Source of the DNA: an uncultured bacterium
GTDB taxonomy: Bacteria > Eisenbacteria > RBG-16-71-46 > CAIMUX01 > WJJG01
Direction of reading: 5' to 3'
Assembly: GCA_964573295.1 (NCBI GenBank)
Contig: CAZNJE010000022.1
Span: forward strand, 5,761-69,760
DNA: 64,000 nt
In this document: piece after piece, positions 31,160 through 50,577 of the stretch
How positions within the stretch are numbered: the stretch's first letter is position 1
Layout of the letters: the number at the start of each line of letters is the position of its first letter
Made by a program: the position numbers and the translations under genes
Notes under the pieces: generated by a model
What the model was told of the DNA's origin: nothing
The model's database searches: none
Seen by the model: the letters and a program-made list of their open reading frames with translations, nothing else

Positions 31160-31278
31160 AGGTAGATCTCCTCTCTGCTTCTCTCCGGGCGTCGTGCCCG
31201 CCGGCTGCTTGCCGGTTCCGATGCCCACCCCTAGCGACCGATAGCATTCTGCATGCCGGTGCTCCGGGGACACCTCCC

Positions 31279-33141: not shown

Positions 33142-33615
33142 ATGAACCCAGTACCGATCACCCGGCGGCGCCTGCGCTCCTGCGCCGGATTCACGATGAC
33201 CGAGATGCTGATCGCACTGACGATTCTGTCGGTCGGCATTCTCTCGGTCGGCCGCCTGTTCATCTTCTCGCAGCGTCACGCCTACTACGGGCGCGCCGAG
33301 ACCACGGCGGTGTCCCTGGCCGAGGAGATTCGGGAGAAGATCATGAGCGATAACTACGACGACCTCATCACGATCTTCCACGGCGTCGATACCGACAACC
33401 CCGGCTCCATCACCCTTCCCTGCCAGCTATGGGCCGATCACCTCACCCAGCAACTCGGGTCCAGCGGTCGCGGCGAGGTCAGTATTCTCGACCACACCCA
33501 AGACGCAGACATCACCGAAGGCATGGTGACCGTCCTGATCACGATCTCCTGGGAAGAGAACGGGGAAACCCGGTGGATCGACATGCGTTTCGCGGTCTCC
33601 AAGGTGGGCATCTGA
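33142..33615 (+). CDS. Type IV minor pilin / pseudopilin, PilV-like (prepilin-type N-terminal cleavage/methylation domain)
   Basis: The ATG is at 33142. The class III signal is ...CAG^FTMTEMLIALTILSVGILSV, with Glu at +5 after the cleavage Gly. Confidence 0.7.
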   Translation: MNPVPITRRRLRSCAGFTMTEMLIALTILSVGILSVGRLFIFSQRHAYYGRAETTAVSLAEEIREKIMSDNYDDLITIFHGVDTDNPGSITLPCQLWADHLTQQLGSSGRGEVSILDHTQDADITEGMVTVLITISWEENGETRWIDMRFAVSKVGI

Positions 33616-33626: not shown

Positions 33627-35246
33627 ATGAGCATTCGGGAGCTGAACCAGAGAACCCGCCCGCGGCGCCCTCGGGCTGCGCAGGGCAGTAACGGGCAGAA
33701 GGGATCGGCGCTCTTGATGGCGCTTCTGATCCTGGGATCGCTGTCGATGATCGGCACCACGATGGTGCTCACCTCGGTCGCCGAACGCCGAACCTCGGGC
33801 TACTACCGTGACAGCCTGCGCGCCCTGGCCGCGGCCGAAACGGGTCTGGCCTTCGGAAAGCGCACCGTCCAGGACATGACCGCCCAGATCGAGGACAGCG
33901 ACGGCGATGGACGGCCCGACTTCGCGCTGGCCGACACGCTGTCCTGGGGCGGCACCTACGAGGTCAAGGCGGAGGCGAGCGACATCGCCGGCTTTGGCAT
34001 TGCCGCCTACCGGGCCAACGGCTACACCATCGTGGCGGAAGGTCGGTACAACGGCACCGTCCGCCGGGTCAAGGCGGAGATCGTCCACGACAGCTTCCTG
34101 AAGTACGCTCGCTTCGTCGCCGCGGCGGGGACCAACTACAGCTGCGGAGCGGTCCTCACCGGCGAGGTCTACGTCGGCGGCGACCTGGGCGTGCCGACCG
34201 GATGCGGCGCCGGCGCCGTGCAGTTCCTCGAGTTCGTCGCGGCCGTGGGCAACATTCCCAACGCCAACAGCGGCATCTTCTATCGCGGCTATGTCACCGG
34301 CGCCGAGCAGATCGACTTGCAGAACTCGGCCGACTTCGCGTTGACCCGCAACATGGCCAAGGGACTCGCTGCCGAATGCGACTGCGAAGACACCGGCGAG
34401 GTGGGCATCTACTTCAACATTGGCGGCGGCGTGGATCCCTTGGGAATCGGATCGGGCGCGCTCGACTTCGGCCAGTTCGACTTCTGCAACACCACGCTGG
34501 CGCCCGGCGACACGGTGATCACCTACGACCAGGTGGCCGTCGATCACGGCGTCACCGGCGCCATGCTGCGTGCCTCGGAGTTCAATGGCATCATTTTCTT
34601 CGACGGCGACGCCCCCATCGAGGGCGCCCTCGACGGCAAGAGTGCCCGCAGTCTGTCGGTGTTTGCCAGCGACGATATCCTGGTCACCAACAACATCCGC
34701 ACCGGCCACACGGGATTCGACCCGGTGACCGAGCAGCCCGACGGATCCGGCGACCCCGTCAACGTCGGGCTGATCGCCTACGACTACGTCTATCTCGATC
34801 GCTACACGCCCCGGGTACTGCAGATCGACGCGGCGCTCATGTCCTGCAACAAGAACTGGCGATGCACATCCACATCCGAGAGCTACCATCCGACCGGCGG
34901 TCCCGGGCCGCTCGACCTCGATCTGGATGGGATCAGCGGCGAGACGCCCTACAACAACGACCCGACTCCGGGCGCGGGCTGGGACGAGCTCAACATCACC
35001 TCCGACACCTGGGTGCTGAACATCAACGGTCCCATCATTACTTACAACGGCGGCAACGCCGCACCGTGGAACAACTCCGGCGTCTTGGCCAATGCCGATG
35101 GCCCGACGCGGCGCTACAACTACGACCTCGATGTCACCGAGTTCCCGCCGCCCTGCTTCCCGGTGCCACTGAACTTGTGGAAGGACGTGAGCTGGACCGA
35201 GATCTTCGAAACCGAACACGCCTTGGCCTACTACCTGCCCAACTAA
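33627..35246 (+). CDS. PilX-like large minor pilin / pilus assembly protein (539 aa)
   Basis: The ATG is at 33627. The PilX N-terminal-type hydrophobic segment is GSALLMALLILGSLSMIGTTMVLTSVAERRTSGYYRDSL. It lies inside a pseudopilin operon. The large C-terminal region is uncharacterised. Confidence 0.65.
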   Translation: MSIRELNQRTRPRRPRAAQGSNGQKGSALLMALLILGSLSMIGTTMVLTSVAERRTSGYYRDSLRALAAAETGLAFGKRTVQDMTAQIEDSDGDGRPDFALADTLSWGGTYEVKAEASDIAGFGIAAYRANGYTIVAEGRYNGTVRRVKAEIVHDSFLKYARFVAAAGTNYSCGAVLTGEVYVGGDLGVPTGCGAGAVQFLEFVAAVGNIPNANSGIFYRGYVTGAEQIDLQNSADFALTRNMAKGLAAECDCEDTGEVGIYFNIGGGVDPLGIGSGALDFGQFDFCNTTLAPGDTVITYDQVAVDHGVTGAMLRASEFNGIIFFDGDAPIEGALDGKSARSLSVFASDDILVTNNIRTGHTGFDPVTEQPDGSGDPVNVGLIAYDYVYLDRYTPRVLQIDAALMSCNKNWRCTSTSESYHPTGGPGPLDLDLDGISGETPYNNDPTPGAGWDELNITSDTWVLNINGPIITYNGGNAAPWNNSGVLANADGPTRRYNYDLDVTEFPPPCFPVPLNLWKDVSWTEIFETEHALAYYLPN

Positions 35247-35263: not shown

Positions 35264-35791
35264 ATGCAGCCCATGCTCGACACGCGACACGTTCCTCAGG
35301 TAACCCGAAGGCTGAGAGCACGCCCGGTCGGCGCGCGCGGCTTCAGCCTGACCGAGCTCATGATCGTTCTGGTCGTCATGGGCATCATGATGACGATCGC
35401 CGTGCCGAACTTCACGCGTATGGGCCGGCGCGACAAGGTCGAGTCGGTGGCCTACGACTTCCACCGCGCCTTTGCCCTGGCGCGTCAGAAGGCGCTGGCG
35501 AAGCGGACCCAGTACAAGGTGACGCTGAACCCGTCCGGTCACAGCTTCGTGGTACAGCGGCGCGATTCGGGAAGCTGGGTCAATGACCCAGCCGACCCGA
35601 AGACCTGGGACGCCGCCGTGAACCTCGTCTCCGAGTGTGGCGGCAACGCGTCGAACGTGGACATCGTGCTCGAGCCGCAGGGCACCGTGGCCGCCGCGGA
35701 TTCGCCCGTTCGACTGACCTTTACCAACGCCCACGGCGATACCGCCCGGGTGAGCCTGGTGCGCACCGGGCGGATACGAGTTTTGCTCTAG
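35264..35791 (+). CDS. FimT/GspH-like pseudopilin (prepilin-type N-terminal methylation domain)
   Basis: The ATG is at 35264. ...ARG^FSLTELMIVLVVMGIMMTIAVPNFTRM + ESVAYDFHRAFALARQKAL (GspH/FimT domain) is present. Confidence 0.7.
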   Translation: MQPMLDTRHVPQVTRRLRARPVGARGFSLTELMIVLVVMGIMMTIAVPNFTRMGRRDKVESVAYDFHRAFALARQKALAKRTQYKVTLNPSGHSFVVQRRDSGSWVNDPADPKTWDAAVNLVSECGGNASNVDIVLEPQGTVAAADSPVRLTFTNAHGDTARVSLVRTGRIRVLL

Positions 35792-35863
35792 CGGTGCCGC
35801 GCGCCCGGTCACCGACCGCGTGCGCGCCGCCGCCCTGGGGGAACCAGCAGAAGGGGGATACTA

Positions 35864-38724
35864 TGATGCGGGCCAGGCCACTAGATTCGTGCCGACGGGG
35901 GTTTACCCTCGTCGAGATGATGGTCGTGCTCGTGATCCTGGGGATGGTCACGATCGGCCTTGTTCAGGTGCTCATTACGAGCCGCGAGTCGTACGATCAG
36001 CAGAAGATTACGATCGAAATGCAGCAGAATGCCCGTGCCGCGCTCGAGAAGCTGTCCGACGATTTCCGGCATGTGAGCTACGGCAAGGACCCCACCCAGC
36101 CGTCGATCCAACAGGCTTGTGAGGATTCGATCACCTTCGTCGCCGACGTGGACCCGGATACCCCCGGGGCGGAGATGATCAAGTACTTCCTGAGCTCCGA
36201 CGGCGACCCCGATACGCCCAATCCCAACGACACGGTGTTGATGAAGACCGTCTCGGACTCCGGAGGCGTTCTGCTCTGGTCCGAACCGCAATCCTACGGC
36301 ATCAGAGCCCCGGATGGCCTGAATCTGCGCTACTTCAACGGCGCGGGGGTGGAAATGGCCAACAACCCGGTTGCCCAACCCGAACTCGTCGGTGAGGTGA
36401 TGATCGAGGTGGTGGCCGTGGAACCGCGCGCCCACCGGCGCACGGGCGAGTACATGGAGCAGACGCTCTCGACCACGATCTACCCCCGGAACCTGCCCCT
36501 GACCCCGGCGCGCAGCCGGCCTTCGACCCCCGCGGTGGGGCCGTTGAGTTTGCCCGACTGCCAGAGCGTGACGGTGCCGTGGAGTACGCCCACGACCAAT
36601 ACCGATGGGACTCCGCTGGAGCTCAGTGACATCAGCCACTTCACCATCTACTTCGGCACCCACGTCGACTCGATGTCGCTCTACTCGCGCGTGGCGCGAA
36701 CGATCAACGAGTGGACGGTCTCGAACCTGATCGGCGGCCACACCTACTACCTGGGGGTGACCTGCACCAGCCGATCGGGTGTCGAGAGCCATATGGGCAT
36801 GGACAACATCGACCTGAACAGTCCCCTGGCGCCCAAGGCCCCCGAAGGCTTCACCGGCGGAGCCAATCCCTACGGCGCCGGCGCGCGGCTCGAGTGGAAC
36901 TCGGTCACCGAATTCACCGGCGGCGAGCTCATAACGACTCCGGTCTTCTACCACCTCTACCGCGACACGAGCCCCGGCGTCACACCGGATCCGGCCCTGC
37001 GCGTGGGCACCGTGCAGGCGCAAACCTGGTTCGCCGACTCCTCGATGGCCGACTGCACGACCTACTACTTCGTGATCACGGCCACGGTCTGCTCGAACGA
37101 GGGTGCGCCGAGCGCCGAGATCTCCCTCACCAGCCCGGCCGCTCCGGCCTGCATCGGGGGCTTGATGGCCTACCCCACCGAAAACAACGGAGAACTCCAC
37201 GTCATGTGGATGCAGCCCACCACTCGCCAGGACGGAAGCGCCTTGCCGACCGATGAGATCAGCGGCTACCGCATCTACTACAGCACCGAGCCTTATGGGA
37301 CCGGCACCTACATCGACTATGGCGGCGACATGACCGAGTACTACCTCACGGAACTGGCGACCTGCACCACCTACTACATCAATGTGGCCGCCTTTGATCT
37401 GTGTCCCCAACTCGGCGAGCTTTGCGCCTACAATCAGGTCACCGTCGATACGGCCGAACCCTGCGATCCCGAACCTCCGATGATGCCCCCGTCGGTCAGC
37501 GCCATCGGCATGGATGAGCGGGTCGACATCGCCTGGCCGACCAATACCGTCGACTGCGACCTCTACGGTTACCGGCTCTACTACGGCACGACACCCGGCG
37601 GGCCCTACAATGGCACCGCCGCCGTGGAGGGCACGAGCCCGATCGAGTTCAGCGCAGCCGAGGTGACCCAGGGGGACTCCTGCCGTGTCTCCTTGACCGG
37701 GCTCTCCGCCTGCCAGGGGTATGCGGTGAAGGTATCGGCCATCGACACCTGCGCGCCCTTCAACGAAAGCGACCTGTCACCCGAGGATGTGGCCACGACC
37801 GAGTGCATGGCCTGCGACGTCGAAGTGGCCTGCCCGGCGGTGATGAACACACCGGCCTACAATTCAGACGTCCGCCTGGAACTCTACACCTTGAGCGGCG
37901 GTGGCGAGACGGTCCAGAGCATGATTCCCAATTGGAGCGATGACGGCTGGCTCAGTCAGATCTGGGCCGGTCGTCCCTTGGTCTGTGTCTGGCACTCCGA
38001 CGGTTCCTGTGGCGGTGGTCCGGCCGGGGAACAGCCCAGCGGGATCGAAATCGACGTCAGCGACTTCGACATCCCCACCAGTGCCGATGAAGAAGATGGC
38101 TTACCGATCGCCTTCCGCTTTGACGGCTCGATGGTGGGCACGTCACTCACCCTCGACGTGCGGGGCAGCACGGGCGGCATCTGCAGCACCGACCCGCGGA
38201 CGGTTCAGAACGGTCTCGGCTTCGACGACTTCGACGACGGCAGCATCAGCGACTGGAACATTGTCAGCGGAAGCTGGTGGGTTGACGGTGGGGAGCTGTA
38301 CCAGAGTTCGACGAGCTCGTCTTGTATCATCCTGTCTCCGGGCACCTATACGGACTTCGTCTTCGAAACCAAGGTCAAGTGCGTCTACAGCCAGACGCCG
38401 TACATCCTCTTCCGCGGCGATGTCGGCTCGGGCGACTGGTACATGCTCGGCCTCAAAACCAGCAACAATATCGTTCGTCTCGGCCGCTTCACCAACGGAT
38501 ACTACACCACCACGGCCGAGACCAGCGTCTCGCTCTCGAACAACGTCTGGTACCATCTGAAGGTGGAGGTTTCCGGGCAGACGATCGATGCCTACCTGGA
38601 CTGCCAGCACGTCCTGAGCATCACCGATCAGAACATGGAGCCCAGCGGACAGATCGGCTTCCGGACATACGCGACGAAGGCCTACTACGACGACTTCCGA
38701 GTCCACGCATTTCCACAGCTGTAG
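35864..38724 (+). CDS. PilW-like pseudopilin fused to FN3-like repeats and a C-terminal lectin/LamG (DUF1080-like) domain; candidate pilus-tip adhesin (953 aa)
   Basis: The ATG at 35864 is preceded by GAAGGGGGA. The N-terminus RRG^FTLVEMMVVLVILGMVTIGLVQVL...QQNARAALEKLSDDFRHVSYG is PilW-like. The middle has repeated YRIYYSTEP / YRLYYGTTPGGPYNG beta-sandwich-like modules. The C-terminus (DFDDGSISDWNIVSGSWWVDGGELYQSS...WYHLKVEVSGQTIDAYLD...IGFRTYATKAYYDDFRVHAF) looks like a concanavalin/LamG jelly-roll. Confidence 0.7.
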
Positions 38725-38858: not shown

Positions 38859-41426
38859 CTAGTGCTTCTCAGCGGCGACGATGCGCGGTGTCACGAAGAT
38901 CAAGAGCTCTCGTTTGTCGTCTTGTTCATCAGTGGACCGGAAGAGGTATCCCAGCACCGGCACACTCTTCAGTATCGGCACCCCGCGCTGAAATTTCGTC
39001 TTGCGCGTGTTGAGCAATCCGCCGATCACGGCTGTCTGGCCATTGCTGACCATGACCCGCGTGTCGGCTTCGGTTGTGTTGAAGACCACGCCGCCCTGAA
39101 CGGTGGCTTCCTGCGATAGGTCACTGATTTCCGGATGGATGTCCAGCGTGATCTCGTTGTCGGAGTTGACATGCGGCGTCACCTCCAAGGCGATCCCGAC
39201 CTGCTTGTACTCGGTGATGGCGTTGCCGGCCTCGTCCATGGTGATGACCGGTACCTCTTTGCCCACCAGAATCCGCGCCATACGGTTATTGACCGTGGTG
39301 ATCCGCGGCGTGGAGATGATATCGGCCTTGTTGTCGGTAGCCAGAGCTTGAATGCGCGCTTGCACTTCACCGAAGGACCGCAGAACGCCGACCTGGACGT
39401 TCCCGGCCGTGCCGACGACGTCGTCGGCCGTCATACTCACCGATCCGGACGCGTTCGAGTCGACCGAGTGGAGGTTGCTGAGCCCCCAGGCTATGCCCAG
39501 CTGTCGGGACATGGTGGCATCGACATCAACCAGCTCGGCCGTGATCTCGATCTGCAGCGTTTCTGTATCAAGGTCCTCCAGGGTGTACTTCAATTCCTCG
39601 AGTCGGGGCGCGATATCGGTGACGATGAGCGAGTTGGTGCGCTCATCGATCTCCACCGACCCACGGCCCGTTCGCATTGCGTCGACGACCGTCTTGAGCT
39701 CGTCGGCGTTGGCGTAGCGCAACGTCACGATCGCCGTCTCCAGGGGCATCAGATCTTCCTGCTTCCGAGCCGCGGATTCCCGGGCCAAGGCCTCTTCCTG
39801 AGCGGTGCGTTCGGTGGCCACGCGAATCACCGAGCCGTGGTCCATGGCGACCAGGCCCAGGGATCGGCTGACGGCGTCGAGCATCTCGTACCAGGGCAGG
39901 TCCACGGCGCGCAGGGTAATGGCACCTTTGACGTTGGCGTCGGCCACGATGTTCACGCCGGCGTACTCGGCGATCGAGCGCAGCACGGTGTGCACGTTGG
40001 CCCCCTGCACGTCCAGCGACATCACCGGCGCGGAACTGGCTGCTTGGCCGAAGCCCCCGCCGCCACCGGTTCCGAAATCGGGGGCGTCGTCGTGGCGGGG
40101 GCGCTTGTCGAGCCAGGTCTCATGGGCGCGCTTCACCGCGCCGGGGCGGTGGCGGGCAATCAGCTTCTCGTAGGGGTCGTAGTGCGCCGCTTCATCGGTT
40201 AGATCGACCTCGCCGGGGACGGCCGCAGCCGCGGGGCCCCCTGCCGTTGGGGCGGATCCCGCCGGGACCTCCGCCGGCGGAGCCGGCGTCGGCGCGACCT
40301 GGTCGAAGGGCGCGCTCCATGCGGCGTCCGCGGTGCGGGTGGCCACCCTGTGGTCGCCGTCGGTCCAGTCTTCCTCGGGAAGCGCTTCGGCCTGCCGGCC
40401 TCCGACGAAATTGGTCAGCGGGTCTGGGGCGCTCGCAGCCAGGATGAGTTCATCGCCCCATACCTCGGGACAGCCCTCGTCCGACCAGTTTCCCTCGTCC
40501 AACCCGTTCTCCTCGTCGGACCAGTTCGCCTCGTCGGACCAGTTCTCCTCGTCCGGCCTATCTCCCTCGCCGGAGCTTTCGTTGAACCCGCTGAGATCCT
40601 CGCCGCGTTGATCCGGCGAGACCGCATCATCCACAGGGCTGGGTTCTGGCCAGACCTCGTCAACCCCAGTGCCGGGTTCTGACCAGGCCAGCTCCGCGAC
40701 ACCCGGGTTTGACCAGATCGACGCGCCTGGATTCGTATCGGAGTCCGCCGGATCCTCCCCGGTGTCCCGGCCAGACTCGATCTCCGCGAACCATTCGGGC
40801 GGAGCCTCGATCTCCTTGCCGGTCCCCTCCTCGGGAGGGCTGTCACCGACCATGGCGGGTTCAGCAGTGGGTTCCGCGGGAGGGCCGAAGGGCACGAGCA
40901 TCGGGCCCCATGACTCCATGTCCCCACCTGGCGCCGGTGATGTGGAGGTTTCCTGGGCGTCAGCCGAATCCGCCGTCCCAGCATCTTGCGGTCCCGGTGC
41001 CCCGTCGTCCGGCACTTCGCTCCACACGACCAGTGCCAGGCCGTCCCCGCTGCGCTCGACCGTGAACTCGACCTCTGCCCGTGTCTCGAGGACATAGCGC
41101 ACGATCGATTCGGTCGGCGTGTCCTTCCACAGCGAGCAGCGCAGATCCGCCACCAGCGGGTCATCGTCCGGAGCCGTCACCTTCCAGGGTGCCTTCACGC
41201 CCACCAGATCCAAGACAACGCGGTACGGATCCCGCATCGCGAACACGTCGAAGGTCAGATCGCTTTCGGCTTGCAGGCGGAGTGTGCCCACCTCGCTCTC
41301 GCAGGCGTAGTGGGCGCCCGCCAATTCCACCGGTTCTCCACCGCTCTGGGCGCCGGCCGCCGCGATCAGCAGCCCCGCGAGCACCAAGCAGGTCAAGCCG
41401 CTGCAGATCCCTGTCCTAGCGTTCAT
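38859..41426 (-). CDS. pilQ: Type IV pilus secretin PilQ, with a ~250-aa acidic low-complexity N-terminal insertion
   Basis: The C-terminal secretin domain is ...GQTAVIGGLLNTRKTKFQRGVPILKSVPVLGYLFRSTDEQDDKRELLIFVTPRIV. N0-like domains and a signal peptide MNARTGICSGLTCLVLAGLLIAAAGAQS are present. The acidic repeats (DEENWSDEANWSDEENGLDEGNWSDEG...) are encoded by tandem DNA repeats at ~40480-40570. Confidence 0.9.
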   Translation of the reverse strand: MNARTGICSGLTCLVLAGLLIAAAGAQSGGEPVELAGAHYACESEVGTLRLQAESDLTFDVFAMRDPYRVVLDLVGVKAPWKVTAPDDDPLVADLRCSLWKDTPTESIVRYVLETRAEVEFTVERSGDGLALVVWSEVPDDGAPGPQDAGTADSADAQETSTSPAPGGDMESWGPMLVPFGPPAEPTAEPAMVGDSPPEEGTGKEIEAPPEWFAEIESGRDTGEDPADSDTNPGASIWSNPGVAELAWSEPGTGVDEVWPEPSPVDDAVSPDQRGEDLSGFNESSGEGDRPDEENWSDEANWSDEENGLDEGNWSDEGCPEVWGDELILAASAPDPLTNFVGGRQAEALPEEDWTDGDHRVATRTADAAWSAPFDQVAPTPAPPAEVPAGSAPTAGGPAAAAVPGEVDLTDEAAHYDPYEKLIARHRPGAVKRAHETWLDKRPRHDDAPDFGTGGGGGFGQAASSAPVMSLDVQGANVHTVLRSIAEYAGVNIVADANVKGAITLRAVDLPWYEMLDAVSRSLGLVAMDHGSVIRVATERTAQEEALARESAARKQEDLMPLETAIVTLRYANADELKTVVDAMRTGRGSVEIDERTNSLIVTDIAPRLEELKYTLEDLDTETLQIEITAELVDVDATMSRQLGIAWGLSNLHSVDSNASGSVSMTADDVVGTAGNVQVGVLRSFGEVQARIQALATDNKADIISTPRITTVNNRMARILVGKEVPVITMDEAGNAITEYKQVGIALEVTPHVNSDNEITLDIHPEISDLSQEATVQGGVVFNTTEADTRVMVSNGQTAVIGGLLNTRKTKFQRGVPILKSVPVLGYLFRSTDEQDDKRELLIFVTPRIVAAEKH

Positions 41427-41892
41427 CTTTGTCCTCCACCCCCGAGGTAACCGGAAGGGTCACCGTCTTGGCCACTCCGTAGTGGCTCACCCTCACGGTG
41501 ATACCGTCCAGGCTCACCGCCACGACCCGACCGTTGCTGATCCGGTCGCCCTGTCTCAGGATCATGTTCTTGCCGCCCACCGTCTGCACGAGGGCAAATC
41601 GGTCATTCGCACCCCACAAGATACCGACGACGATCAGATCGTCGACCTCCAGCGGGCCATCGGCGACCTCTTCTCCGCCAGCGACCAGCAACGCCGCAAA
41701 CGGATCGCGCAGCGCGCTGCTTTGGTAGAAGTACGGTTCAGGGGACAGGAAATCGTCGAGCACCTCGCCCACATCCAGAAGCAGTGAGTCCCCCGCCGCG
41801 CCACCTTCGTCCATCGCCTTCGTTCGGGCCTCTTGCGCCCCCGCGAGTCCCGTCAACAGGATCAGGAGGCCCATCGCGTACGCCAGTCTCAT
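41416..41892 (-). CDS. pilP: Type IV pilus assembly lipoprotein PilP-like
   Basis: It sits between pilO and pilQ. It is small, with a signal peptide (MRLAYAMGLLILLTGLAGAQ) and a C-terminal beta domain (NGRVVAVSLDGITVRV). Confidence 0.7.
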   Translation of the reverse strand: MRLAYAMGLLILLTGLAGAQEARTKAMDEGGAAGDSLLLDVGEVLDDFLSPEPYFYQSSALRDPFAALLVAGGEEVADGPLEVDDLIVVGILWGANDRFALVQTVGGKNMILRQGDRISNGRVVAVSLDGITVRVSHYGVAKTVTLPVTSGVEDKDER

Positions 41893-42563
41893 TCTTCGCT
41901 ACCTCCCTGTCCGCCCGAGTTACTCTGGCGTCCCCGGACCTTGGCCGCCACGCCCCGCGAGGTCGGGGCATCGTCGGGCGGCGCTTCGCCCGCGGGAGCG
42001 GCGCCCAGTGTGTAGGCCACTGCCGTGAAGCTCGCGCGGGCCGGGAAGTTCGGGTTGTCGCGCGGCGGCAACTGTTCGATCACCAGGTCGCGCACGTTGA
42101 TGATGCGGGTCATCGCCGCGACCTCGTTCAGGAACGAGGCGATCTGGTGATACCCCCCGTCGACTTTGATGTTCAGCAGGTTCTCGCGGTAGAAGTCACC
42201 GCTCACCGTCCCCGCCGGCTGAAACAAGACGAAGTCGACACCGCAGCTCTGGCCCCGGAAGGAAACCTCCCGGAACAGGCTGATGATCTGCTTGTCACCG
42301 GGCAGGAGCTGATTGGCCTCCTCCCACTTGCTCTGCAGGGCCTCGAACTCGGCCTCCAGGTGCGGCAGGTGCTTCATCGACTGCCGCGCCCGGTTCACTT
42401 CCAGACTCACCTTCTCGTACTGGCCGCGCAGCTCGCCGAGCTCCGCCGCCTGGGCTTTGTAGGAGAAGGGAACCAGGGCGGTGAAGAAGTTCAGGTACAG
42501 AATCGCCGCCCCGCCGATGCCCAGGAAGAGCAGCTTGGCTGTCTTGGGATCGTTGATGTCCAT
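41889..42563 (-). CDS. pilO: Type IV pilus assembly protein PilO
   Basis: It has a single N-terminal TM (LLFLGIGGAAILYLNFF), a coiled coil, and a ferredoxin-like periplasmic domain. It lies in pilMNOPQ order. Confidence 0.8.
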   Translation of the reverse strand: MDINDPKTAKLLFLGIGGAAILYLNFFTALVPFSYKAQAAELGELRGQYEKVSLEVNRARQSMKHLPHLEAEFEALQSKWEEANQLLPGDKQIISLFREVSFRGQSCGVDFVLFQPAGTVSGDFYRENLLNIKVDGGYHQIASFLNEVAAMTRIINVRDLVIEQLPPRDNPNFPARASFTAVAYTLGAAPAGEAPPDDAPTSRGVAAKVRGRQSNSGGQGGSEE

Positions 42564-42594
42564 CCGTTGCTCCCTCCTGCTCCCGGACGGTCGC

Positions 42595-43149
42595 CTACCT
42601 GGTGACCCGGGTGGTCAGGGTGAAGGTCATGACCGGCTCGCCATCGATCTGCTTACGTTCGGCTACCGACAGGTCCACCTGGCCGTAGAGGTCGGTTGCC
42701 TCCAGCCTGCTCATCAGGTCCGCCACCACGAGGTTCGAGAAGGTCACTCCCTCGAGGACGTAGGACGCTGGAGAGGTCTGCTGCAGCTTGGTCAGCCAAA
42801 GATGCTCCGGAATCTGCATGGACAGCTCGTCGAGCAGCTGCACTTGCATCGTACGCTCGCGATTCAAATCTCGGACCAGATTCAGTCGCAGGTTCAGTTC
42901 CTCGCGTTTCTGCATGAGCTGATTGATGCGCTCGATCTGCGGCTTCAGCCGCTGGCTCTCCTGCTGGGCCACCATGACATCGTTGCGCAGGCTCTGAATC
43001 TTGCTGGCCTGTATCAGGTACAGCGCGGTCAGAGGCACCACCAGCGCGACGATCGCCGCCAACGGCAACAAGAAGTTCTTCCGGGGAGCCTGGACGAGCT
43101 GTCGTTCCTCGGTCCGCTCCTCCTTCGGCAGGAGGTTGACGCTAATCAC
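42595..43149 (-). CDS. pilN: Type IV pilus assembly protein PilN
   Basis: A GTG start at 43149 gives MISVNLLPKEERTEE..., the canonical PilN N-terminus (INLLP). It has a TM and a coiled coil. The ORF's annotated upstream M is probably not used. Confidence 0.8.
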   Translation of the reverse strand: MISVNLLPKEERTEERQLVQAPRKNFLLPLAAIVALVVPLTALYLIQASKIQSLRNDVMVAQQESQRLKPQIERINQLMQKREELNLRLNLVRDLNRERTMQVQLLDELSMQIPEHLWLTKLQQTSPASYVLEGVTFSNLVVADLMSRLEATDLYGQVDLSVAERKQIDGEPVMTFTLTTRVTR

Positions 43150-43150
43150 C

Positions 43151-44188
43151 TCAAGCCCCCTTTCTGAGCGCCAGCCCAACCCCAACAGCCAGCTGCGGGG
43201 CGATGTCCTGGGGATCCGATCCTTGGAAGATGTCCGGTAGGTAGCGCAGCCGTCGCAGCGGATTGATCATCTCGACCGGCAGGGGCTGCACCTGAGTCAG
43301 GGCTTCCACGAAGCCTGGGATGCGCGCGCCGCCGCCCGAGAGGAAGATCCGGTCCAGGTGCTCGGCTTCCCCGGACGTCCGCAGGTAGGTAGCCGACTTC
43401 TCCAGGCTCTGGGCGATGTCCTTGCAGAAGCTCTCTATCATGGGGGCGACCTCGAGCTTACCGCCTGTGGCCTGCAGCGCCTGCACCGCTTCCTCGCGGC
43501 TCACCTGGAACCGCTTCTGAATCGTTCGCACCACCGTGTTGATCCCAACCGACAGATCCTGCGTGTAGAGCGGCACCCCGTCGCGGATGATGTTCACGTT
43601 CGTGATCTCCGCGCCCAGATCGAGCAACACCGCCAGCTCCTCGGGCCGCAGGTCGTGCGCCGTCTCCACCACGTTCTGAATCGCGAAGGAGTTGACGTCG
43701 ATCACCTCCGGGGCCAGTCCGGCCTCGCGGATGATGTCGGCCAGATTCAGAATCAGGTCGCGCTTCGCCGCCACGAGCAGGACCTGCATCTGGTTCGGGC
43801 CGATGTCGGCGGGAAGGATTTCGTAGTCGATCGAAACGTCGTTGATGTCGTAGGGAATGTGCTGCTCGGCTTCCCAGTAGATCGCTTCGGCAGCGGCCTC
43901 TTCCGGAAGACGCTCCATGACGATCTTCTTGACGATCACCCCGCGGCCGTGAATGCCGGCAATCACCCGGCGGCGCCGGATGCCGCGTGACTCGAACAGG
44001 TTCTGAATCATCTCGACGACCATCTGGCGATCCATGATCTCGCCGTCGACGATCGTCTCCGGATCCAGCGGGGCCACCCCGTAGTTCAGCAGGTGGTACT
44101 CGTTGCCCTGGCGCTCGATTTCGACGACCTTGATGGCACTGGCGCCGATATCGAGCCCGACGGTTGTCTTCTTGCGTTTGTTGAACAC
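43151..44188 (-). CDS. pilM: Type IV pilus assembly ATPase-fold protein PilM
   Basis: MFNKRKKTTVGLDIGASAIKVVEI... has an actin-like fold. It shows PilM-family similarity throughout. Confidence 0.9.
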   Translation of the reverse strand: MFNKRKKTTVGLDIGASAIKVVEIERQGNEYHLLNYGVAPLDPETIVDGEIMDRQMVVEMIQNLFESRGIRRRRVIAGIHGRGVIVKKIVMERLPEEAAAEAIYWEAEQHIPYDINDVSIDYEILPADIGPNQMQVLLVAAKRDLILNLADIIREAGLAPEVIDVNSFAIQNVVETAHDLRPEELAVLLDLGAEITNVNIIRDGVPLYTQDLSVGINTVVRTIQKRFQVSREEAVQALQATGGKLEVAPMIESFCKDIAQSLEKSATYLRTSGEAEHLDRIFLSGGGARIPGFVEALTQVQPLPVEMINPLRRLRYLPDIFQGSDPQDIAPQLAVGVGLALRKGA

Positions 44189-44328
44189 CTGGTCTGCCTC
44201 CTCGCGCCCAGGTTATGGGGGATGCGGCTCACGGCTGAGCCACGGGATCGCGATCTAAGGTTGATATCGACCCCCAAAACCGGCTTCCTGAGCGCATAGG
44301 AGGTTGGTGAAAGGAATCTGTCGAGAAA

Positions 44329-45135
44329 TCAGGAGAGCGGAAAGAGCCGCAAGTAGATGTTCCACAGAGTGTTCCCGGCAAACAGCACAATCCACGCCGC
44401 CGGCGCGAGAAAGGTCCCAAATGGCAGCGCCGTCTGGCGGTTCCCACGGCCGCCCAGCATGAGGCCCACGCCCACGATCGAGCCCACGAAGGAACCGCAG
44501 AGGATGGTCCCCAGTGCTCCTTGCCAGCCCAGGAACGCACCCACCATGGCCATGAGCTTGACGTCACCCATGCCCAGGCCCTCCCGACCGGTCGCCAGCT
44601 GGTAGCCGTAGGCCACGGCCAAGAGCCCCCCCCCGCCGGCCAGCACACCCAGGAGCGCATCGCCTATCGAAGGCGGCCCCAGGAGCGCCCAGGTCAAGCC
44701 CAGGACGGTGCCCGGAATCGTGATGCTGTCGGGGATGATGCGGTGGTCGTAGTCGATGAAGACGACGGCCAAGAGAGCCAGCACGAAGACCATCCACAGC
44801 AGCGCCGCCCAAACGGTGCCCCCATGCGCGAAGGCCAGCACGGTCAGCAGGGCACCGGCGGCTTCCACCACCGGATAGCGCCACGGAATCCGCGCCCCGC
44901 ACCCACGGCACCGGCCGCGCAGGAAAAGGAAGCTCACCAGGGGAACATTCTCCCATGGACGCACGCGCCTCGCACAGGCCGGACAGTGCGATGGTGGATG
45001 AACCAGGGAGAGTCCGCGCGGGAGCCGGTAGATCACGACGTTGAGAAAGCTGCCCAGGGCAGCGCCCAGCCAGGCCACCAGCGCCCAGCCCCACCACTGC
45101 CCCTGGAGTGCTTGGTAGATCCACTCGGCATTCAT
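44329..45135 (-). CDS. pilD: Prepilin peptidase / N-methyltransferase PilD (A24 family)
   Basis: The ATG is at 45135. The tetracysteine motif is CPACARRVRPWENVPLVSFLFLRGRCRGCGARI. The catalytic Asp-containing loops are DYDHRIIPD and GMGDVKLMAMVGAFLG. Confidence 0.9.
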   Translation of the reverse strand: MNAEWIYQALQGQWWGWALVAWLGAALGSFLNVVIYRLPRGLSLVHPPSHCPACARRVRPWENVPLVSFLFLRGRCRGCGARIPWRYPVVEAAGALLTVLAFAHGGTVWAALLWMVFVLALLAVVFIDYDHRIIPDSITIPGTVLGLTWALLGPPSIGDALLGVLAGGGGLLAVAYGYQLATGREGLGMGDVKLMAMVGAFLGWQGALGTILCGSFVGSIVGVGLMLGGRGNRQTALPFGTFLAPAAWIVLFAGNTLWNIYLRLFPLS

Positions 45136-45178
45136 GCGACCGTCCTTTCCCGGCGGCTGCCCGCAGGCCACCAGGCGG

Positions 45179-45880
45179 CTAGCGCGTCTCGCCCGGTTCC
45201 AGATCCGCAAGGCGCTCGGACGCCATGCGCCTGATCTCCTCGTTGTCGCTGGTCTCGGCCAGCAAGCTCCACAGCACCTTGGCCGTCTCCGGGTCGCCGG
45301 CCTTCTCGTAGGCCGCCGCCGCGAATCGGTGGGCGTAGGGCGCGGCGCCCTCGAGGTGAGCGGCGTTGTAGAAATTCCCCGCCGCCGACCGGTAGTCCTT
45401 CAGGGCCACGTACTGGAAGAAGCCGAGCTCGAAGCGCAGCTTCCATGAGCCCGGATTGCGATCGACTCCGCGCTGCAACAGCTCTTCGGCCTGCTCCAGA
45501 TACCCGCCCTCGGACATGACCAGAGCGGCGAACAGGTAGGCGTTCTCGAACTGCGGATCGGCATCGGTGAGCGTGAAGAACAGGTGCGGCGACAGCTGGT
45601 AACGCCGGTCGGTCTGCCGGTGCTTGCCGTAGTACTGAATCGCCTCCAACCACGCCAGGTCGGCCAGCAGCTGCGGGTGGCCGAGGCTCAGTTCCCGCAG
45701 CCATTCTCCGGAGGGGAAGAGCGCCAGCTCGCTCTGGTCGCGGATCGGAGGACGCGCGCCCGCCAACGCTTCACGCAGTGGAATCGATGCGGTCAACAAG
45801 ACGATGGCCAGCGCGAGGTAGGCGAGGGCGTGTAGGTGCGCTCTTCTGCGCGGCTGCTTGTGTAGCGGGCTCCGCATCAT
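45179..45880 (-). CDS. Membrane-anchored TPR-like protein, T4P-associated by position (possible PilG-like accessory protein or PilF/Tgl-like pilotin)
   Basis: It has an N-terminal signal anchor (HLHALAYLALAIVLLTASIP) and helical repeat content. It sits between the ABC transporter genes and pilD, where the M. xanthus cluster also carries an accessory gene. The function is inferred from synteny only. Confidence 0.45.
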   Translation of the reverse strand: MMRSPLHKQPRRRAHLHALAYLALAIVLLTASIPLREALAGARPPIRDQSELALFPSGEWLRELSLGHPQLLADLAWLEAIQYYGKHRQTDRRYQLSPHLFFTLTDADPQFENAYLFAALVMSEGGYLEQAEELLQRGVDRNPGSWKLRFELGFFQYVALKDYRSAAGNFYNAAHLEGAAPYAHRFAAAAYEKAGDPETAKVLWSLLAETSDNEEIRRMASERLADLEPGETR

Positions 45881-48401: not shown

Positions 48402-48791
48402 CTAGCCGTTGCTCAGGGTGATCACCACTGCGGTCTCACCGTAGCCTTCGACATCGTAGACGCCCGCCGCCAGCGCATACCCAAGGTCGCCCTGGCTGAA
48501 ACCAGGAGCCGCAATACCGCAGGGATTGCCGGTGAACGGATTGGTCGGGAAGACGCCTCCCGGGAACAGAGCGGCCACGATGTCGGCCAGCGCCGGATAG
48601 GTCGCGCCGTTGCGTACACTGAAGTCCTCGACCACCAGCTGCAGGGAGTGCGCATTGGCCTTGACGCTACCTTCCTTGGCCCGATTGGTCATGGAGATGT
48701 AGTTGGGAATCGCGATCGCTGCCAGAATGCCAATGATGACCACAACGATCATGAGCTCGATGAGGGTGAAACCCTTGTTACTGCGGAACAT
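48402..48791 (-). CDS. pilA: Type IVa major pilin paralog 1 (129 aa)
   Basis: The ATG at 48791 is preceded by GAGGAGG 8 nt upstream. The class III signal is MFRSNKG^FTLIELMIVVVIIGILAAIAIPNY. The C-terminus is ...VITLSNG. Confidence 0.8.
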   Translation of the reverse strand: MFRSNKGFTLIELMIVVVIIGILAAIAIPNYISMTNRAKEGSVKANAHSLQLVVEDFSVRNGATYPALADIVAALFPGGVFPTNPFTGNPCGIAAPGFSQGDLGYALAAGVYDVEGYGETAVVITLSNG

Positions 48792-48892
48792 CTCAAACAC
48801 CTCCTCTTCGTGGTACCTCACACGTGGCCGTCTGGCGGCATCGTGTGAGGTCGACCACACTCCGCTCAGACAACCGTTCTTGTCCCTTTGTA

Positions 48893-48908
48893 TGCAGTCC
48901 CCGTGCCA
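48893..48908 (-). promoter_or_regulatory. Sigma-54 (-24/-12) promoter candidate TGGCACGGGGACTGCA upstream of pilA paralog 1
   Basis: The minus-strand reading is TGGCAC-N5-CTGCA, which matches the GG-N10-GC spacing. It lies ~100 nt upstream of the pilA1 ATG and downstream of pilR, which encodes a sigma-54 activator. Confidence 0.5.
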
Positions 48909-49019
48909 GCAAAGGCTGACGCGGAGGACAATTTCTAACTGCTTCACTTTCAGAGAGTTGGAACGTTTGGACCCCCCCGGCGATCCCGCTCTCGTCCCCT
49001 CCGTTCGGCGCGCCGGCGA

Positions 49020-49099
49020 TGCAGTCTGCAAGCGGGGTGTTCAAGTTGCGAACGCTCGCTGCAATCTGCGAACGCAGGCGTCCGGACGTGCAGTCTGCA
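49020..49099. promoter_or_regulatory. Two copies of the palindromic motif TGCAGTCTGCA (49020-49030 and 49089-49099; centres ~69 bp apart) plus TGCGAACGC repeats in the pilR-pilA intergenic region; candidate PilR upstream activating sequences
   Basis: The motifs are seen directly. They lie 110-190 bp upstream of the sigma-54 element. The same core occurs at 32869-32898. Confidence 0.45.
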
Positions 49100-49103
49100 T
49101 GCA

Positions 49104-50501
49104 TCAGGCCGCCTCGGCCTCGGCCTGCGGCCCGTTGTCGGATTGCTTGTCGGTCATGTCGTAGCCGACCAGCTTCCGGTAGAGGGTCGAGGCATTGATG
49201 CCCAGGATCTCGGCTGCACGCTTCTTCTGCCAGCCGGTGTGGTTGAGTACCTTGAGGATGTACTCCTTCTCGAGCTCCTCGAGGCTCATCGTCGGGCTGT
49301 CGACGATGAAGCTGCCCTTGCGCGTCGGCCCTTGCACCACCTGTTCGGGCAAATCTTCCATGCCGATCTGATCGTGCTCACTCAGAATGACCGCCCGTTC
49401 GATGACGTTCTCGAGCTCGCGGACATTGCCCGGCCAGTCGTAGCGCATGAGGCAATCCATGACCTCGCGCGAGAGGGTCTTGAGACCGTTGGGGCCGGGG
49501 AAGCGCGCCAGAAAGTGATCGGCCAGAAGCGCGATGTCGTCCCGGCGCTGGCGCAAGGGCGGCAACCGCACCGGAATCACGTTGAGCCGGTAGAAGAGGT
49601 CGTGGCGGAAACGGCCCTCGCTGACCTCCTTCTCCAGGTCGCTGTTCGTGGCGGCCACCAGGCGGACGTCGATCTTGAGCGCTTCGTTGGCCCCGATCGG
49701 GATGATTTCCCGTTCTTGCAGGGCCCGCAGCAGCTTCACCTGGGTGGCCGGCGCCATCTCGCCCACCTCGTCGAGAAAGAAGGTGCCGCCTTCGCAGACG
49801 ACGAAGTGCCCGGGCTGGTCCTTGACCGCTCCGGTGAACGAGCCCTTCTTGTGGCCGAAGAGCGTACTCTCGAGCAGATCCTTGTGCAGCGCTCCGCAGT
49901 TGATCGACAGGAAGGGGCCCTTCGCCCGCTGGCTACGGTAGTGAATCTCGCGCGCGATCAGCTCCTTGCCCGTGCCGCTCTCGCCGAAGATCAGCACGGT
50001 CGCGTTGGTGACGGCCACCTTCTCGACCATCTTGTAGACCTTGAGCATCTCTTCGGAGCGGCCGATCAGCCGCCGATCCTCGTGACGCTTCTTGAGCTGC
50101 CACTTGAGAACCTCGTTCTCCGACCGCACCCGGCTCATGGCGAGCGCGTTGCCCACCGCCAGCAGGATCTCCTCGTTGCGGGCGCTCTTCTCGACGAGCT
50201 GGAAGGCACCTCGCCGGATCGCCTCGGCCGCCACCTTCTCGGTACCGTAGGCGGTCAAGATCACCACCGGCAGGTCGGGGTACTTGGCGTGCATCCCATC
50301 GAGGACGCTCAACCCATCGACCCCCGGCATCTTCAGGTCGGTGATGACCAGATCGAAGCTGTCGCGATCGAGCCGGCTGATGCCGTCGGCTCCATTCTCG
50401 AGCGCGGTGACCTCGTACCCTTCGCTGACCAGGAGCATGCTCAGGAAGCGGCGCATGCTATCTTCGTCATCGATGACCAGTATGCGGTGCTTACGATCCA
50501 T
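49104..50501 (-). CDS. pilR: Sigma-54-dependent response regulator PilR (NtrC family)
   Basis: The ATG is at 50501 (MDRKHRILVIDDED, the receiver). The AAA+ sigma54-interaction domain has GESGTGKE and the GAFTGA loop variant GSFTGA. The C-terminal Fis-type HTH is AAEILGINASTLYRKL. Confidence 0.9.
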   Translation of the reverse strand: MDRKHRILVIDDEDSMRRFLSMLLVSEGYEVTALENGADGISRLDRDSFDLVITDLKMPGVDGLSVLDGMHAKYPDLPVVILTAYGTEKVAAEAIRRGAFQLVEKSARNEEILLAVGNALAMSRVRSENEVLKWQLKKRHEDRRLIGRSEEMLKVYKMVEKVAVTNATVLIFGESGTGKELIAREIHYRSQRAKGPFLSINCGALHKDLLESTLFGHKKGSFTGAVKDQPGHFVVCEGGTFFLDEVGEMAPATQVKLLRALQEREIIPIGANEALKIDVRLVAATNSDLEKEVSEGRFRHDLFYRLNVIPVRLPPLRQRRDDIALLADHFLARFPGPNGLKTLSREVMDCLMRYDWPGNVRELENVIERAVILSEHDQIGMEDLPEQVVQGPTRKGSFIVDSPTMSLEELEKEYILKVLNHTGWQKKRAAEILGINASTLYRKLVGYDMTDKQSDNGPQAEAEAA

Positions 50502-50577
50502 GCCCCATCCGTCATGTGCCACAGCTGTGCCACGGTGTCGGTTGTGAATTCATGCGGTTCTTCGGGGACGATGCGCG

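What the first reader, a model, noticed from the sequence alone, without database searches (positions are those of the whole stretch)
35864..38724. Giant PilW-like pseudopilin fused to FN3-like repeats and a C-terminal lectin-like jelly-roll: candidate type IV pilus tip adhesin
Ordinary PilW minor pilins are about 250-350 aa. This ORF keeps the PilW-type class III signal and N-terminal domain, then continues for ~700 more residues. That extension contains several Tyr-rich beta-sandwich modules (YRIYYSTEPYGTGTY, YRLYYGTTPGGPYNG) and a C-terminal concanavalin/LamG-like domain. It is the last gene of a four-gene minor-pilin operon (PilV-like, PilX-like, FimT/GspH-like, PilW-like). No separate PilY1 is present in this operon, so this protein may combine the priming-complex pilin and the tip adhesin in one polypeptide. 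A carbohydrate-binding C-terminal domain would suggest surface or polysaccharide recognition.
Basis: partly seen in the sequence, partly recalled or inferred. Interest (0 to 1): 0.75.

Follow-up and report, generated by a model that had tools for sequence, protein, structure and literature searches.

The report
Stalked sugar-binding pilus-tip minor pilin
This is a real 953-residue pilus subunit from an uncultured Eisenbacteria genome: its front end is an ordinary PilW/GspJ-type minor pilin, and a stalk of fibronectin-like domains then carries a carbohydrate-binding module, so it most likely puts a sugar-binding adhesin on the pilus tip, a design already known in outline from "modular pilins".

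Summary

It is not a fusion artefact: 106 relatives, nearly all 930-980 aa, reach down to 35% identity, and every named one is Candidatus Eisenbacteria. It closes a four-gene operon (PilV-like, PilX-like, GspH/FimT-like, this gene) inside a complete Myxococcus-like type IVa pilus locus.

No PilY1 lies in the 64-kb window. A local PilY1 profile hit 0 of 37 loci with giant PilW-like genes and 19 of 23 loci with short ones. Whole genomes could not be searched.

The kind is known. Modular pilins include S. sanguinis PilC with a lectin module, and pilin+DUF1080 is listed in a 2021 dataset. What differs is the PilW carrier in a secretin-containing (diderm-type) system and the apparent absence of PilY1. 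Moderate interest.

The parts
35863..38724 (+). Whole gene: modular PilW/GspJ-class minor pilin of 953 aa plus stop codon
   Evidence: ORF and Shine-Dalgarno sequence. 106 relatives, nearly all full-length at 930-980 aa. AF2 mean pLDDT 87.7.
35863..36078 (+). Residues 1-72: 13-residue prepilin leader (ends at G13), mature F+1...E+5 (FTLVE), hydrophobic alpha1 helix
   Evidence: Pfam N_methyl at 10-33, 33.9 bits. TIGR02532. G13 and E18 invariant in 61 sequences. Helix 16-72 in the model.
36079..36483 (+). Residues 73-207: globular pilin beta-sheet domain of the GspJ/PilW fold class
36484..36546 (+). Residues 208-228: strongly conserved linker PRNLPLxPARSRP, the most conserved segment and disordered in the monomer model
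   Evidence: Invariant P208 R209 N210 L211 P212 R219 P220 P223. Identity 0.71. pLDDT below 50 at 210-216. A role as a partner-binding segment is inference.
36547..37806 (+). Residues 229-648: four tandem FN3-type beta-sandwich modules (about 229-320, 321-428, 429-535, 536-648) with conserved cysteines
   Evidence: Pfam fn3 32.4 bits. PDB profile hits to titin, a Fn3-like protein and PTPRD. Foldseek hits to LAR FN1-4 (E 9e-18) and fibronectin FN7-10. 11 of the 15 Cys in this stretch are invariant and 4 more are 77-92% conserved.
37807..38196 (+). Residues 649-778: fifth beta-sandwich domain, family unassigned
   Evidence: All-beta and pLDDT about 90 in the model. No Pfam or PDB sequence match. 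C651, C657 and C774 invariant.
38197..38721 (+). Residues 779-953: CBM66 / PF06439 (DUF1080) ConA-like jelly-roll, the proposed carbohydrate-binding head
33142..33615 (+). PilV/GspI-like minor pilin (157 aa), first gene of the operon
   Evidence: N_methyl 27.5 bits. TIGR02523 PilV 31.9 bits, below its cutoff. G/FTMTE processing motif.
33627..35246 (+). PilX/GspK-like minor pilin (539 aa) without Glu5, with a long unannotated C-terminal region
   Evidence: Pfam PilX_N 35.5 bits against cutoff 25.5. No Glu5 in the sequence. No PDB sequence match. Conserved in L001, L013 and L032.
35264..35791 (+). GspH/FimT/FimU-like minor pilin (175 aa)
   Evidence: Pfam GspH 23 bits against cutoff 21. TIGR01708 E 1.9e-14.
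38859..45210 (-). Convergent pilQ-pilP-pilO-pilN-pilM genes and the prepilin peptidase gene (machine and processing enzyme)
   Evidence: ORFs. The same genes carry Secretin, PilO, PilN, PilM_2 and Peptidase_A24 Pfam annotations in the syntenic locus L002. tblastn synteny.
48402..56557 (-). pilA (major pilin), pilR, pilS, pilC, pilT, pilB: the rest of the type IVa pilus locus
   Evidence: Pfam: N_methyl; Sigma54_activat with Response_reg; HisKA/HATPase with 6TM_PilS; T2SSF; T2SSE; T2SSE with MshEN.

Best explanation
The gene encodes a modular core minor pilin of a type IVa pilus. The steps below are marked as shown or inferred.

1. Processing. The prepilin peptidase encoded in the same locus cleaves the protein after G13. 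This is shown by sequence motifs and inferred as an event.

2. Role in the priming complex. The GspJ/PilW-class pilin domain takes the 'J' position in the four-pilin complex, together with the PilV-like (I), GspH-like (H) and Glu5-less PilX-like (K) products of the same operon. The fold and the operon are shown. The assembly is inferred from what is established for GspIJK and for the M. xanthus and P. aeruginosa minor pilins.

3. Tip location. Pili grow from the base, so the priming complex ends up at the pilus tip.

4. Stalk and head. From the tip, the conserved linker and a stalk of five beta-sandwich domains hold a CBM66-type module away from the fibre. I estimate the stalk at roughly 15-20 nm. 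The domains are shown. The geometry is inferred, since the model's pTM is only 0.42.

5. Binding and function. The CBM66 head binds a polysaccharide, probably at chain ends as in characterised CBM66 modules. This would let the retractile pilus (pilT is present) attach to and pull on exopolysaccharide, plant or microbial glycans, or glycan-coated surfaces. This step is inferred and the ligand is unknown.

6. Relation to PilY1. The protein plausibly does the adhesin job that the separate protein PilY1 does in Pseudomonas, Neisseria and Myxococcus. This rests on gene-neighbourhood contrast only.
For: Pilin signal and Glu5.

GspJ-class fold.

HIJK-type operon directly beside pilMNOPQ, pilD, pilA and pilBTC.

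FN3 stalk.

CBM66 head. No GH16 catalytic motif in 0 of 61 members.

Conserved cysteines, consistent with an exported, disulfide-bonded protein.

Conservation falls from the proximal end (pilin domain 0.60, linker 0.71, FN3-1 0.56) to the distal end (CBM66 0.36). This fits a conserved anchor carrying a diversifying ligand-binding head.

The family is conserved at full length across Eisenbacteria.

The nearest non-Eisenbacteria relative of the pilin domain examined is a 235-aa protein in Desulforhopalus. It has a weak Pfam PilW match and is followed by a 1863-aa PilY1-type protein.

A local PilY1 profile hits 19 of 23 loci with short PilW-like genes and 0 of 37 loci with giant ones.

Other Eisenbacteria carry a different head (an FG-GAP propeller) on the same kind of pilin, which shows module swapping.

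Precedent: S. sanguinis PilC is a pilin with an Ig-like module and a ConA-like lectin module. It binds glycans and is modelled at the tip (PMC9934059). Modular pilins are widespread (PMC8179133).
Against: There is no experimental evidence of any kind, and the phylum has no cultured member that I know of.

The Pfam PilW model does not match.

The ligand-binding residues of CBM66 could not be checked, because the primary paper is not held.

PF06439 also contains a true enzyme, BT2157, a 3-keto-disaccharide hydrolase (PMC8121099).

In M. xanthus a bulky C-terminal sfGFP on PilW3 blocks pilus function (PMC7541494). Passage of a 730-residue extension through the secretin is therefore assumed, not shown.

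The contrast with PilY1 has three weaknesses:
- It covers only about 8 kb on each side of the gene.
- It uses a profile built from Desulfobacterota.
- The loci are not phylogenetically independent.
Confidence: 0.7

Rival explanations
1. Additional adhesin, not a PilY1 substitute. The genome encodes a PilY1 elsewhere. The stalked PilW would then add a second, glycan-specific binding function to a tip complex that still needs PilY1.
For: M. xanthus keeps its minor-pilin and PilY1 clusters away from the main pil locus (PMC7541494). Only 64 kb of this genome, and about 8-10 kb of flank in relatives, were examined.
Against: In the relatives that do have PilY1, it lies directly downstream of the short PilW-like gene (19 of 23 loci). 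None of 37 giant-PilW loci shows it, including three outside Eisenbacteria: L045, L050 and L057. Among the loci returned, each Eisenbacteria genome contributed only one PilW-type locus.
Confidence: 0.3
2. Enzyme display. The C-terminal PF06439 domain is catalytic (a glycoside or 3-keto-glycoside hydrolase), so the pilus carries an enzyme rather than a lectin.
For: PF06439 is named after a hydrolase, and BT2157 cleaves 3-keto-trehalose (PMC8121099). NCBI labels some family members 'family 16 glycoside hydrolase'. Peptidase-bearing modular pilins exist in databases (PMC8179133).
Confidence: 0.1
3. Not displayed on an extended pilus. The protein stays in the cell envelope as a short pseudopilus or periplasmic stem component, binding peptidoglycan or capsule glycans, or serving secretion.
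For: The fold is closest to a type II secretion pseudopilin, GspJ. Bulky PilW fusions jam the M. xanthus machine.
Against: The locus has pilA, pilT and a PilQ secretin, and no separate T2SS genes were seen in the window. PilY1 proteins of 1500-1900 aa pass through such secretins in related systems. A chain of small beta-sandwich domains is narrow.
Confidence: 0.08
4. Assembly or frameshift artefact joining a normal pilW to a downstream gene.
For: None found. The length is unusual for PilW.
Against: 106 relatives, nearly all 930-980 aa with the same domain order, come from many independent assemblies, including closed chromosomes, and reach down to 35% identity. The AF2 model is continuous and high-confidence.
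Confidence: 0.01

Closest known systems
Streptococcus sanguinis PilC (modular minor pilin: pilin module, Ig-like module, ConA-like lectin module; PMC9934059)
   Same: Both have a class III signal and pilin module followed by Ig-type spacer domain(s) and a C-terminal ConA-like carbohydrate-binding jelly-roll. PilC is modelled at the tip as part of a minor-pilin complex that is also needed for assembly.
   Different: PilC is from a monoderm with no secretin and no HIJK set. It has one spacer domain rather than five, and its lectin is galectin-like rather than CBM66. The pilin modules are not the same class: here the module is GspJ/PilW-like and sits in a canonical four-pilin operon of a diderm type IVa system. 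No sequence homology was detected.
PilW / GspJ (XcpW, EpsJ), the 'J' subunit of the core minor (pseudo)pilin complex
   Different: Ordinary members are about 200-350 aa and have no appended modules. The Pfam PilW model does not match this family. Sequence identity to solved GspJ structures is 10-13%.
PilY1 / PilC tip adhesin of diderm type IVa pili
   Same: The proposed job is the same: a large, modular adhesin carried on the priming and tip complex. It occupies the gene position just after the minor pilins.
   Different: PilY1 is not a pilin and is defined by a C-terminal beta-propeller (PF05567). No such domain is present here. The resemblance is functional and inferred; this protein is not a family member.
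CBM66 of Bacillus subtilis levanase SacC (PDB 4azz/4b1l/4b1m) and the Cohnella xanthanase CsCBM66
   Different: Known CBM66 modules are appended to glycoside hydrolases or lyases, not to pilins. Known ligands are terminal fructose of levan and inulin, and lyase-treated xanthan (PMC8715580, PMC11002231), so specificity cannot be transferred.
CofB / TcpB minor pilins of type IVb pili (as summarised in PMC8179133)
   Same: A pilin domain is followed by beta-rich domains. They locate at the tip and are required to start assembly.
   Different: They belong to the type IVb system, have different folds for the added domains, and CofB forms a homotrimer rather than joining an HIJK-type heteromer. They were not compared structurally here.

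Membership tests
Type IV pilin (class III signal peptide) | Short basic leader ending in Gly, then a hydrophobic N-terminal helix with Glu5 | tested here: met
   Leader is MMRARPLDSCRRG, followed by FTLVE. Pfam N_methyl scores 33.9 bits against 21.2, and TIGR02532 matches. G13 and E18 are invariant. The model has a helix at 16-72.
Type IV pilin (class III signal peptide) | Cognate prepilin peptidase and assembly machine encoded in the genome | tested here: met
   The ORF at 44329-45210 is syntenic with the Peptidase_A24 gene of L002. pilMNOPQ, pilA, pilB, pilT and pilC are present.
PilW / GspJ (J subunit of the core minor pilins) | GspJ-type globular fold | tested here: met
PilW / GspJ (J subunit of the core minor pilins) | Match to the Pfam PilW (PF16074) or NCBIfam GspJ sequence models | tested here: not met
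   0 of 19 members match PF16074 even at E up to 10, and there is no GspJ hit in NCBIfam. A 235-aa relative of the pilin domain in Desulforhopalus matches PF16074 only weakly (E 9e-4, below threshold).
PilW / GspJ (J subunit of the core minor pilins) | Encoded together with H-, I- and K-type minor pilins | tested here: met
   The GspH family, a PilV-like gene and a PilX_N gene lacking Glu5 lie in the same co-directional cluster. The cluster is conserved in L001, L013 and L032.
PilW / GspJ (J subunit of the core minor pilins) | Physical assembly with I and K subunits; requirement for piliation | not testable with these tools
   No complex prediction or genetics was available.
Modular type IV pilins (Raynaud et al. 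2021) | N-terminal pilin module fused to one or more domains not specific to pilus biology | tested here: met
   Pilin module plus FN3 x4, a beta-sandwich and PF06439. The architectures IPR012902-IPR010496 (6 proteins) and IPR012902-IPR003961 (12 proteins) are already listed in that paper's dataset.
CBM66 / PF06439 (DUF1080) | Sequence and fold match to the family | tested here: met
CBM66 / PF06439 (DUF1080) | Non-catalytic carbohydrate binding; conserved ligand-contact residues | not tested
   The primary structure paper (PMC3529030) is not held, so the binding-site residues could not be mapped. Biochemistry is needed.
Glycoside hydrolase family 16 (the name given by NCBI to some members) | Catalytic ExDx(x)E motif | tested here: not met
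   0 of 61 members have the motif in the C-terminal domain.
Fibronectin type III domain | Match to FN3 sequence models and the seven-strand beta-sandwich fold | tested here: met
   Pfam fn3 scores 32.4 bits for the whole protein, with individual repeats weak. PDB profile hits at E 5.6e-7 to 9e-5. Foldseek hits to tandem FN3 arrays at E 9e-18.
PilY1 / PilC adhesin | C-terminal PilY1 beta-propeller (PF05567) | tested here: not met
   There is no PF05567 hit in this protein or in any large ORF of the window. A local PilY1 profile gives no hit in the window or in any Eisenbacteria locus at E up to 10.

The most novel reading that the evidence does not exclude
Across the phylum Eisenbacteria, and sporadically in Desulfobacterota and Nitrospirota, the separate tip adhesin PilY1 has been lost from type IVa pili. 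Its role has been taken over by adhesive modules grafted directly onto the PilW core minor pilin through an Ig/FN3 stalk. The heads are exchangeable: CBM66 in this lineage, an FG-GAP beta-propeller in a sister lineage, and others elsewhere. That would make PilW a general 'carrier' subunit and these pili PilY1-independent.
Probability: 0.35. Interest if true: 0.6.

Novelty: new variant of a known kind. Interest (0 to 1): 0.42.

Why it matters
In the diderm type IVa pili studied so far, the tip adhesin PilY1 and the four core minor pilins are treated as an obligatory set. A phylum-wide PilW that carries its own stalk and carbohydrate-binding head, with no PilY1 gene beside it, suggests a simpler tip. 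In that tip the priming pilin and the adhesin would be one polypeptide.

It would also extend the modular-pilin idea, worked out in a Gram-positive bacterium, to the conserved J subunit of a secretin-containing machine.

It gives a concrete, testable hint about the lifestyle of an uncultured soil and sediment phylum: pilus-mediated attachment to polysaccharide.

Two points limit the significance. The general principle is already published, and giant PilW-like pilins with Ig-type stalks turned out to be fairly common in metagenomes: about 25 of the 150 closest 50%-identity clusters are at least 600 aa.

Tried and rejected
- Pfam and NCBIfam sequence models for PilW and GspJ gave no hit. The class was assigned by fold instead.
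- A PDB sequence-profile search with the N-terminal domain matched only the generic alpha1 helix of pilins.
- I tried to read the CBM66 structure paper (PMC3529030) to map ligand-contact residues. It is not held, and secondary papers give ligands but not residues.
- The GH16 reading suggested by some NCBI names is rejected, because the catalytic motif is absent.
- The frameshift or fusion artefact is rejected.
- The PilX-like 539-aa protein has no PDB sequence match.
- The promoter and terminator scan of the operon was uninformative: 0 promoter-like sites, and terminator-like sites at chance level.
- Fifth beta-sandwich domain (residues 649-778): no family assigned.
- A genome-wide PilY1 search was not possible.
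- The 760-aa ORF with no Pfam hit beside pilB was read as a possible PilY1 substitute. By eye it looks like an outer-membrane protein, and it was not pursued.
Full report
**What is there.** The window is about 65% G+C. It contains an ORF open from 35635 to 38724 on the + strand. The credible start is the ATG at 35863, six bases after GGGGGA, which gives 953 aa. The finding's start coordinate is one base off. The N-termini of homologues align with this start.

**Domain content by sequence.**
- Pfam finds the prepilin N-methylation motif at 10-33 (33.9 bits) and PF06439 (3keto-disac_hyd, formerly DUF1080, ConA-like) at 790-947 (37.8 bits against a gathering score of 26.8).
- The fn3 signal is summed (32.4 bits for the whole protein). 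Laminin_G_3 is below threshold.
- NCBIfam matches only generic pilin N-termini.
- The leader is MMRARPLDSCRRG and the mature protein starts FTLVE, so G-1, F+1 and E+5 are canonical. G13 and E18 are invariant in 61 relatives.

**Not an artefact.**
- A search of 5.8 billion proteins found 106 relatives (P0001-P0106), nearly all full-length at 930-980 aa with the same Pfam content, down to 35% identity.
- Every relative that carries an organism name is Candidatus Eisenbacteria. The product names used are 'DUF1080 domain-containing', 'family 16 glycoside hydrolase' and 'prepilin-type N-terminal cleavage/methylation domain-containing'.
- A scan of one genome per species found full-length copies in about 38 genomes. 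One of these loci is labelled Gemmatimonadetes, many are unclassified ('uncultured bacterium' or 'bacterium'), and the rest are named Eisenbacteria/Eiseniibacteriota. They include long contigs and a 6.45-Mb chromosome. The closest is CAZZIF010000005.1 at 95% identity.

**Structure.**
- AlphaFold2 on a 61-sequence alignment gave mean pLDDT 87.7. pTM is 0.42, so the relative domain orientation is not defined.
- The model shows a helix at 16-72, a beta-sheet pilin domain at 82-206, a low-confidence linker at 207-228, five beta-sandwich domains (229-320, 321-428, 429-535, 536-648, 649-778) and a C-terminal jelly-roll at 779-953.
- The same match is found by sequence: profile E 1.7e-20 and single-sequence E 1.5e-12 over the whole module.
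- Foldseek aligns the middle region to tandem FN3 arrays: LAR FN1-4 at E 9e-18 and fibronectin FN7-10 at E 4.8e-15.
- The fifth sandwich (649-778) matches no family.
- The pilin domain is therefore J-class (PilW/GspJ) by fold. The Pfam PilW model matches none of 19 members, and a PDB profile search sees only the generic alpha1 helix.

**Context.**
- The gene is the last of four co-directional genes separated by 11, 17 and 71 nt. They are a PilV-like pilin (33142-33615), a 539-aa PilX_N protein without Glu5 (33627-35246), a GspH-family pilin (35264-35791) and this gene.
- Downstream and convergent lie pilQ, pilP, pilO, pilN, pilM and the prepilin peptidase gene.
- Further on are an ABC transporter pair, pilA, pilR, pilS, pilC, pilT and pilB. 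As I recall it, this is the gene order of the Myxococcus xanthus pil locus.
- All other sizeable ORFs of the window were scanned with Pfam and none is a PilY1.
- The same operon (PilV, large PilX, GspH, giant PilW) and its flanks are conserved in distant members.

**Conservation pattern.**
- Mean pairwise identity is 0.60 for the pilin sheet domain, 0.71 for the linker (PRNLPLxPARSRP, largely invariant) and 0.56 for FN3-1.
- It falls to 0.37-0.49 for the distal modules and to 0.36 for CBM66.
- Of the 24 cysteines, 12 are invariant and 6 more are 77-93% conserved. All but one of these 18 lie in the FN3 and beta-sandwich region (229-778). This fits a disulfide-bonded exported protein.
- I read this as a conserved machine-facing anchor with a faster-evolving ligand-facing head. 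That reading is inference.

**Relatives of the pilin domain.**
- Outside the family, the pilin domain has relatives at 25-39% identity (best segment), mainly in Desulfobacterota. Most are 195-270 aa when mature.
- The Desulforhopalus singaporensis copy (235 aa) has a weak Pfam PilW match. It is followed, after two small genes, by a 1863-aa protein with a PilY1 propeller match.
- I built a PilY1 profile from these loci. It hits 19 of 23 loci that have a short PilW-like gene and at least 5 kb of downstream sequence. It hits 0 of 37 loci with a giant PilW-like gene.
- The 37 comprise 27 of the FN3-CBM66 type (including the window), 7 Eisenbacteria of a second type, and L045, L050 and L057 from other phyla.
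- The second Eisenbacteria type (L041-L044, L046, L048, L058) is a pilin of about 700 aa whose extension contains FG-GAP propeller repeats (Pfam E 5.7e-13, tested on L046). It is followed by a PilX_N gene.
- The two types occur in different genomes among the loci returned.
- An exhaustive profile search of 1.84 billion representatives shows that about 25 of the 150 closest clusters are at least 600 aa. Nine of these were scanned: most carry FN3, Big_1/Invasin_D3 or Big_2 stalk domains, three also carry FG-GAP repeats, and one has no recognisable extra domain.
- Stalked, modular PilW-like pilins are therefore a recurrent design, and this gene is the CBM66-headed version.

**Mechanism proposed.**
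- Shown: the pilin signal, the J-class fold, the HIJK-type operon within a pilT-containing type IVa locus, the FN3 stalk and the CBM66 head.
- Inferred from established knowledge: GspIJK structures, the M. xanthus priming and tip complex (PMC7541494) and the S. sanguinis PilABC model (PMC9934059). On that basis the protein joins the priming complex, is carried to the pilus tip, and presents the CBM66 module on a flexible stalk.
- Characterised CBM66 modules bind terminal fructose of levan and inulin (Cuskin et al. 2012, as cited in PMC8715580 and PMC11002231) or lyase-treated xanthan (PMC11002231). A polysaccharide ligand is therefore likely, but its identity is open.
- Combining the priming pilin and the adhesin in one polypeptide, in place of PilY1, is supported only by the gene-neighbourhood contrast.

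**Caveats.**
- PF06439 includes a real hydrolase, BT2157 (PMC8121099). However, the closest match here is the non-catalytic module, and no GH16 motif exists.
- PilW3-sfGFP jams the M. xanthus machine, so export of the extension is assumed.
- PilY1 could be encoded elsewhere.
- The PilY1 profile is taxonomically narrow.
- The loci compared are not independent.

**Comparison with the known, and novelty.**
- Modular pilins were defined in 2021. More than 1,200 proteins and 264 architectures are listed, including FN3 and PF13385 lectin modules.
- That paper's dataset already lists pilin+IPR010496 (DUF1080) with 6 proteins and pilin+IPR013517 (FG-GAP) with 5.
- S. sanguinis PilC is a characterised pilin-Ig-lectin adhesin. 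The principle is therefore known.
- To my knowledge three things are not described. The carrier here is the conserved PilW/GspJ subunit of a diderm type IVa system. The architecture is fixed across a phylum, with head swapping between lineages. It also anticorrelates with an adjacent PilY1.
- I rate it a new variant of a known kind, with interest 0.42.

Noticed in passing
window 33627-35246 (+): The PilX_N minor pilin is 539 aa. About 460 residues after the N-terminal helix have no Pfam or PDB sequence match. The large size is conserved in relatives (L001, L013, L032). It may be a second bulky tip component.
   Followed up: partly
L041-L044, L046, L048, L058 (for example L046 7878-10166): A second Eisenbacteria lineage has a PilW-like pilin of about 700-760 aa whose extension carries FG-GAP propeller repeats instead of FN3-CBM66 (Pfam checked on L046 only). 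It is followed by a PilX_N gene. It occurs in different genomes from the CBM66 type.
   Followed up: partly
P0118-P0238; L045, L050, L056, L057: Giant (600-1500 aa) PilW-like pilins are common outside Eisenbacteria, in Desulfobacterota and Nitrospira. Most of those scanned carry FN3, Big_1/Invasin_D3 or Big_2 stalk domains, and three of nine also carry FG-GAP repeats. None of the fetched loci shows a PilY1 downstream.
   Followed up: partly
L001 12818-13786; L002 12841-13659: Distant family members have an extra gene of 322 or 272 aa, with no Pfam match, directly after the giant pilin. The window has no such gene: only 134 nt separate the stop codon from the end of pilQ.
   Followed up: no
window 45926-47798 (-): An ABC-2 permease and ABC ATPase pair sits between pilA and the prepilin peptidase gene. 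The whole locus order (pilB-T-C-S-R-A, ABC, pilD, pilM-Q) resembles the Myxococcus xanthus pil locus with pilGHI.
   Followed up: no
window 57290-59572 (-): A 760-aa ORF beside pilB has coding-like codon composition and no Pfam match. Its N-terminus has Arg/Thr-rich repeats and a signal-like hydrophobic stretch. It could be an outer-membrane protein.
   Followed up: no
window 12725-12821 (-), 18818-18892 (-), 18939-19012 (-): tRNA-Sec (anticodon TCA), tRNA-Thr (CGT) and tRNA-Phe (GAA). The tRNA-Sec implies selenoprotein synthesis in this organism.
   Followed up: no
window 38859-41426 (-): The PilQ secretin (855 aa) has a long acidic, low-complexity insert with repeated NWSDE-like units between its N-terminal domain and the secretin core. 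The nearby ORF at 30717-31247 ends in GKASGE repeats.
   Followed up: no
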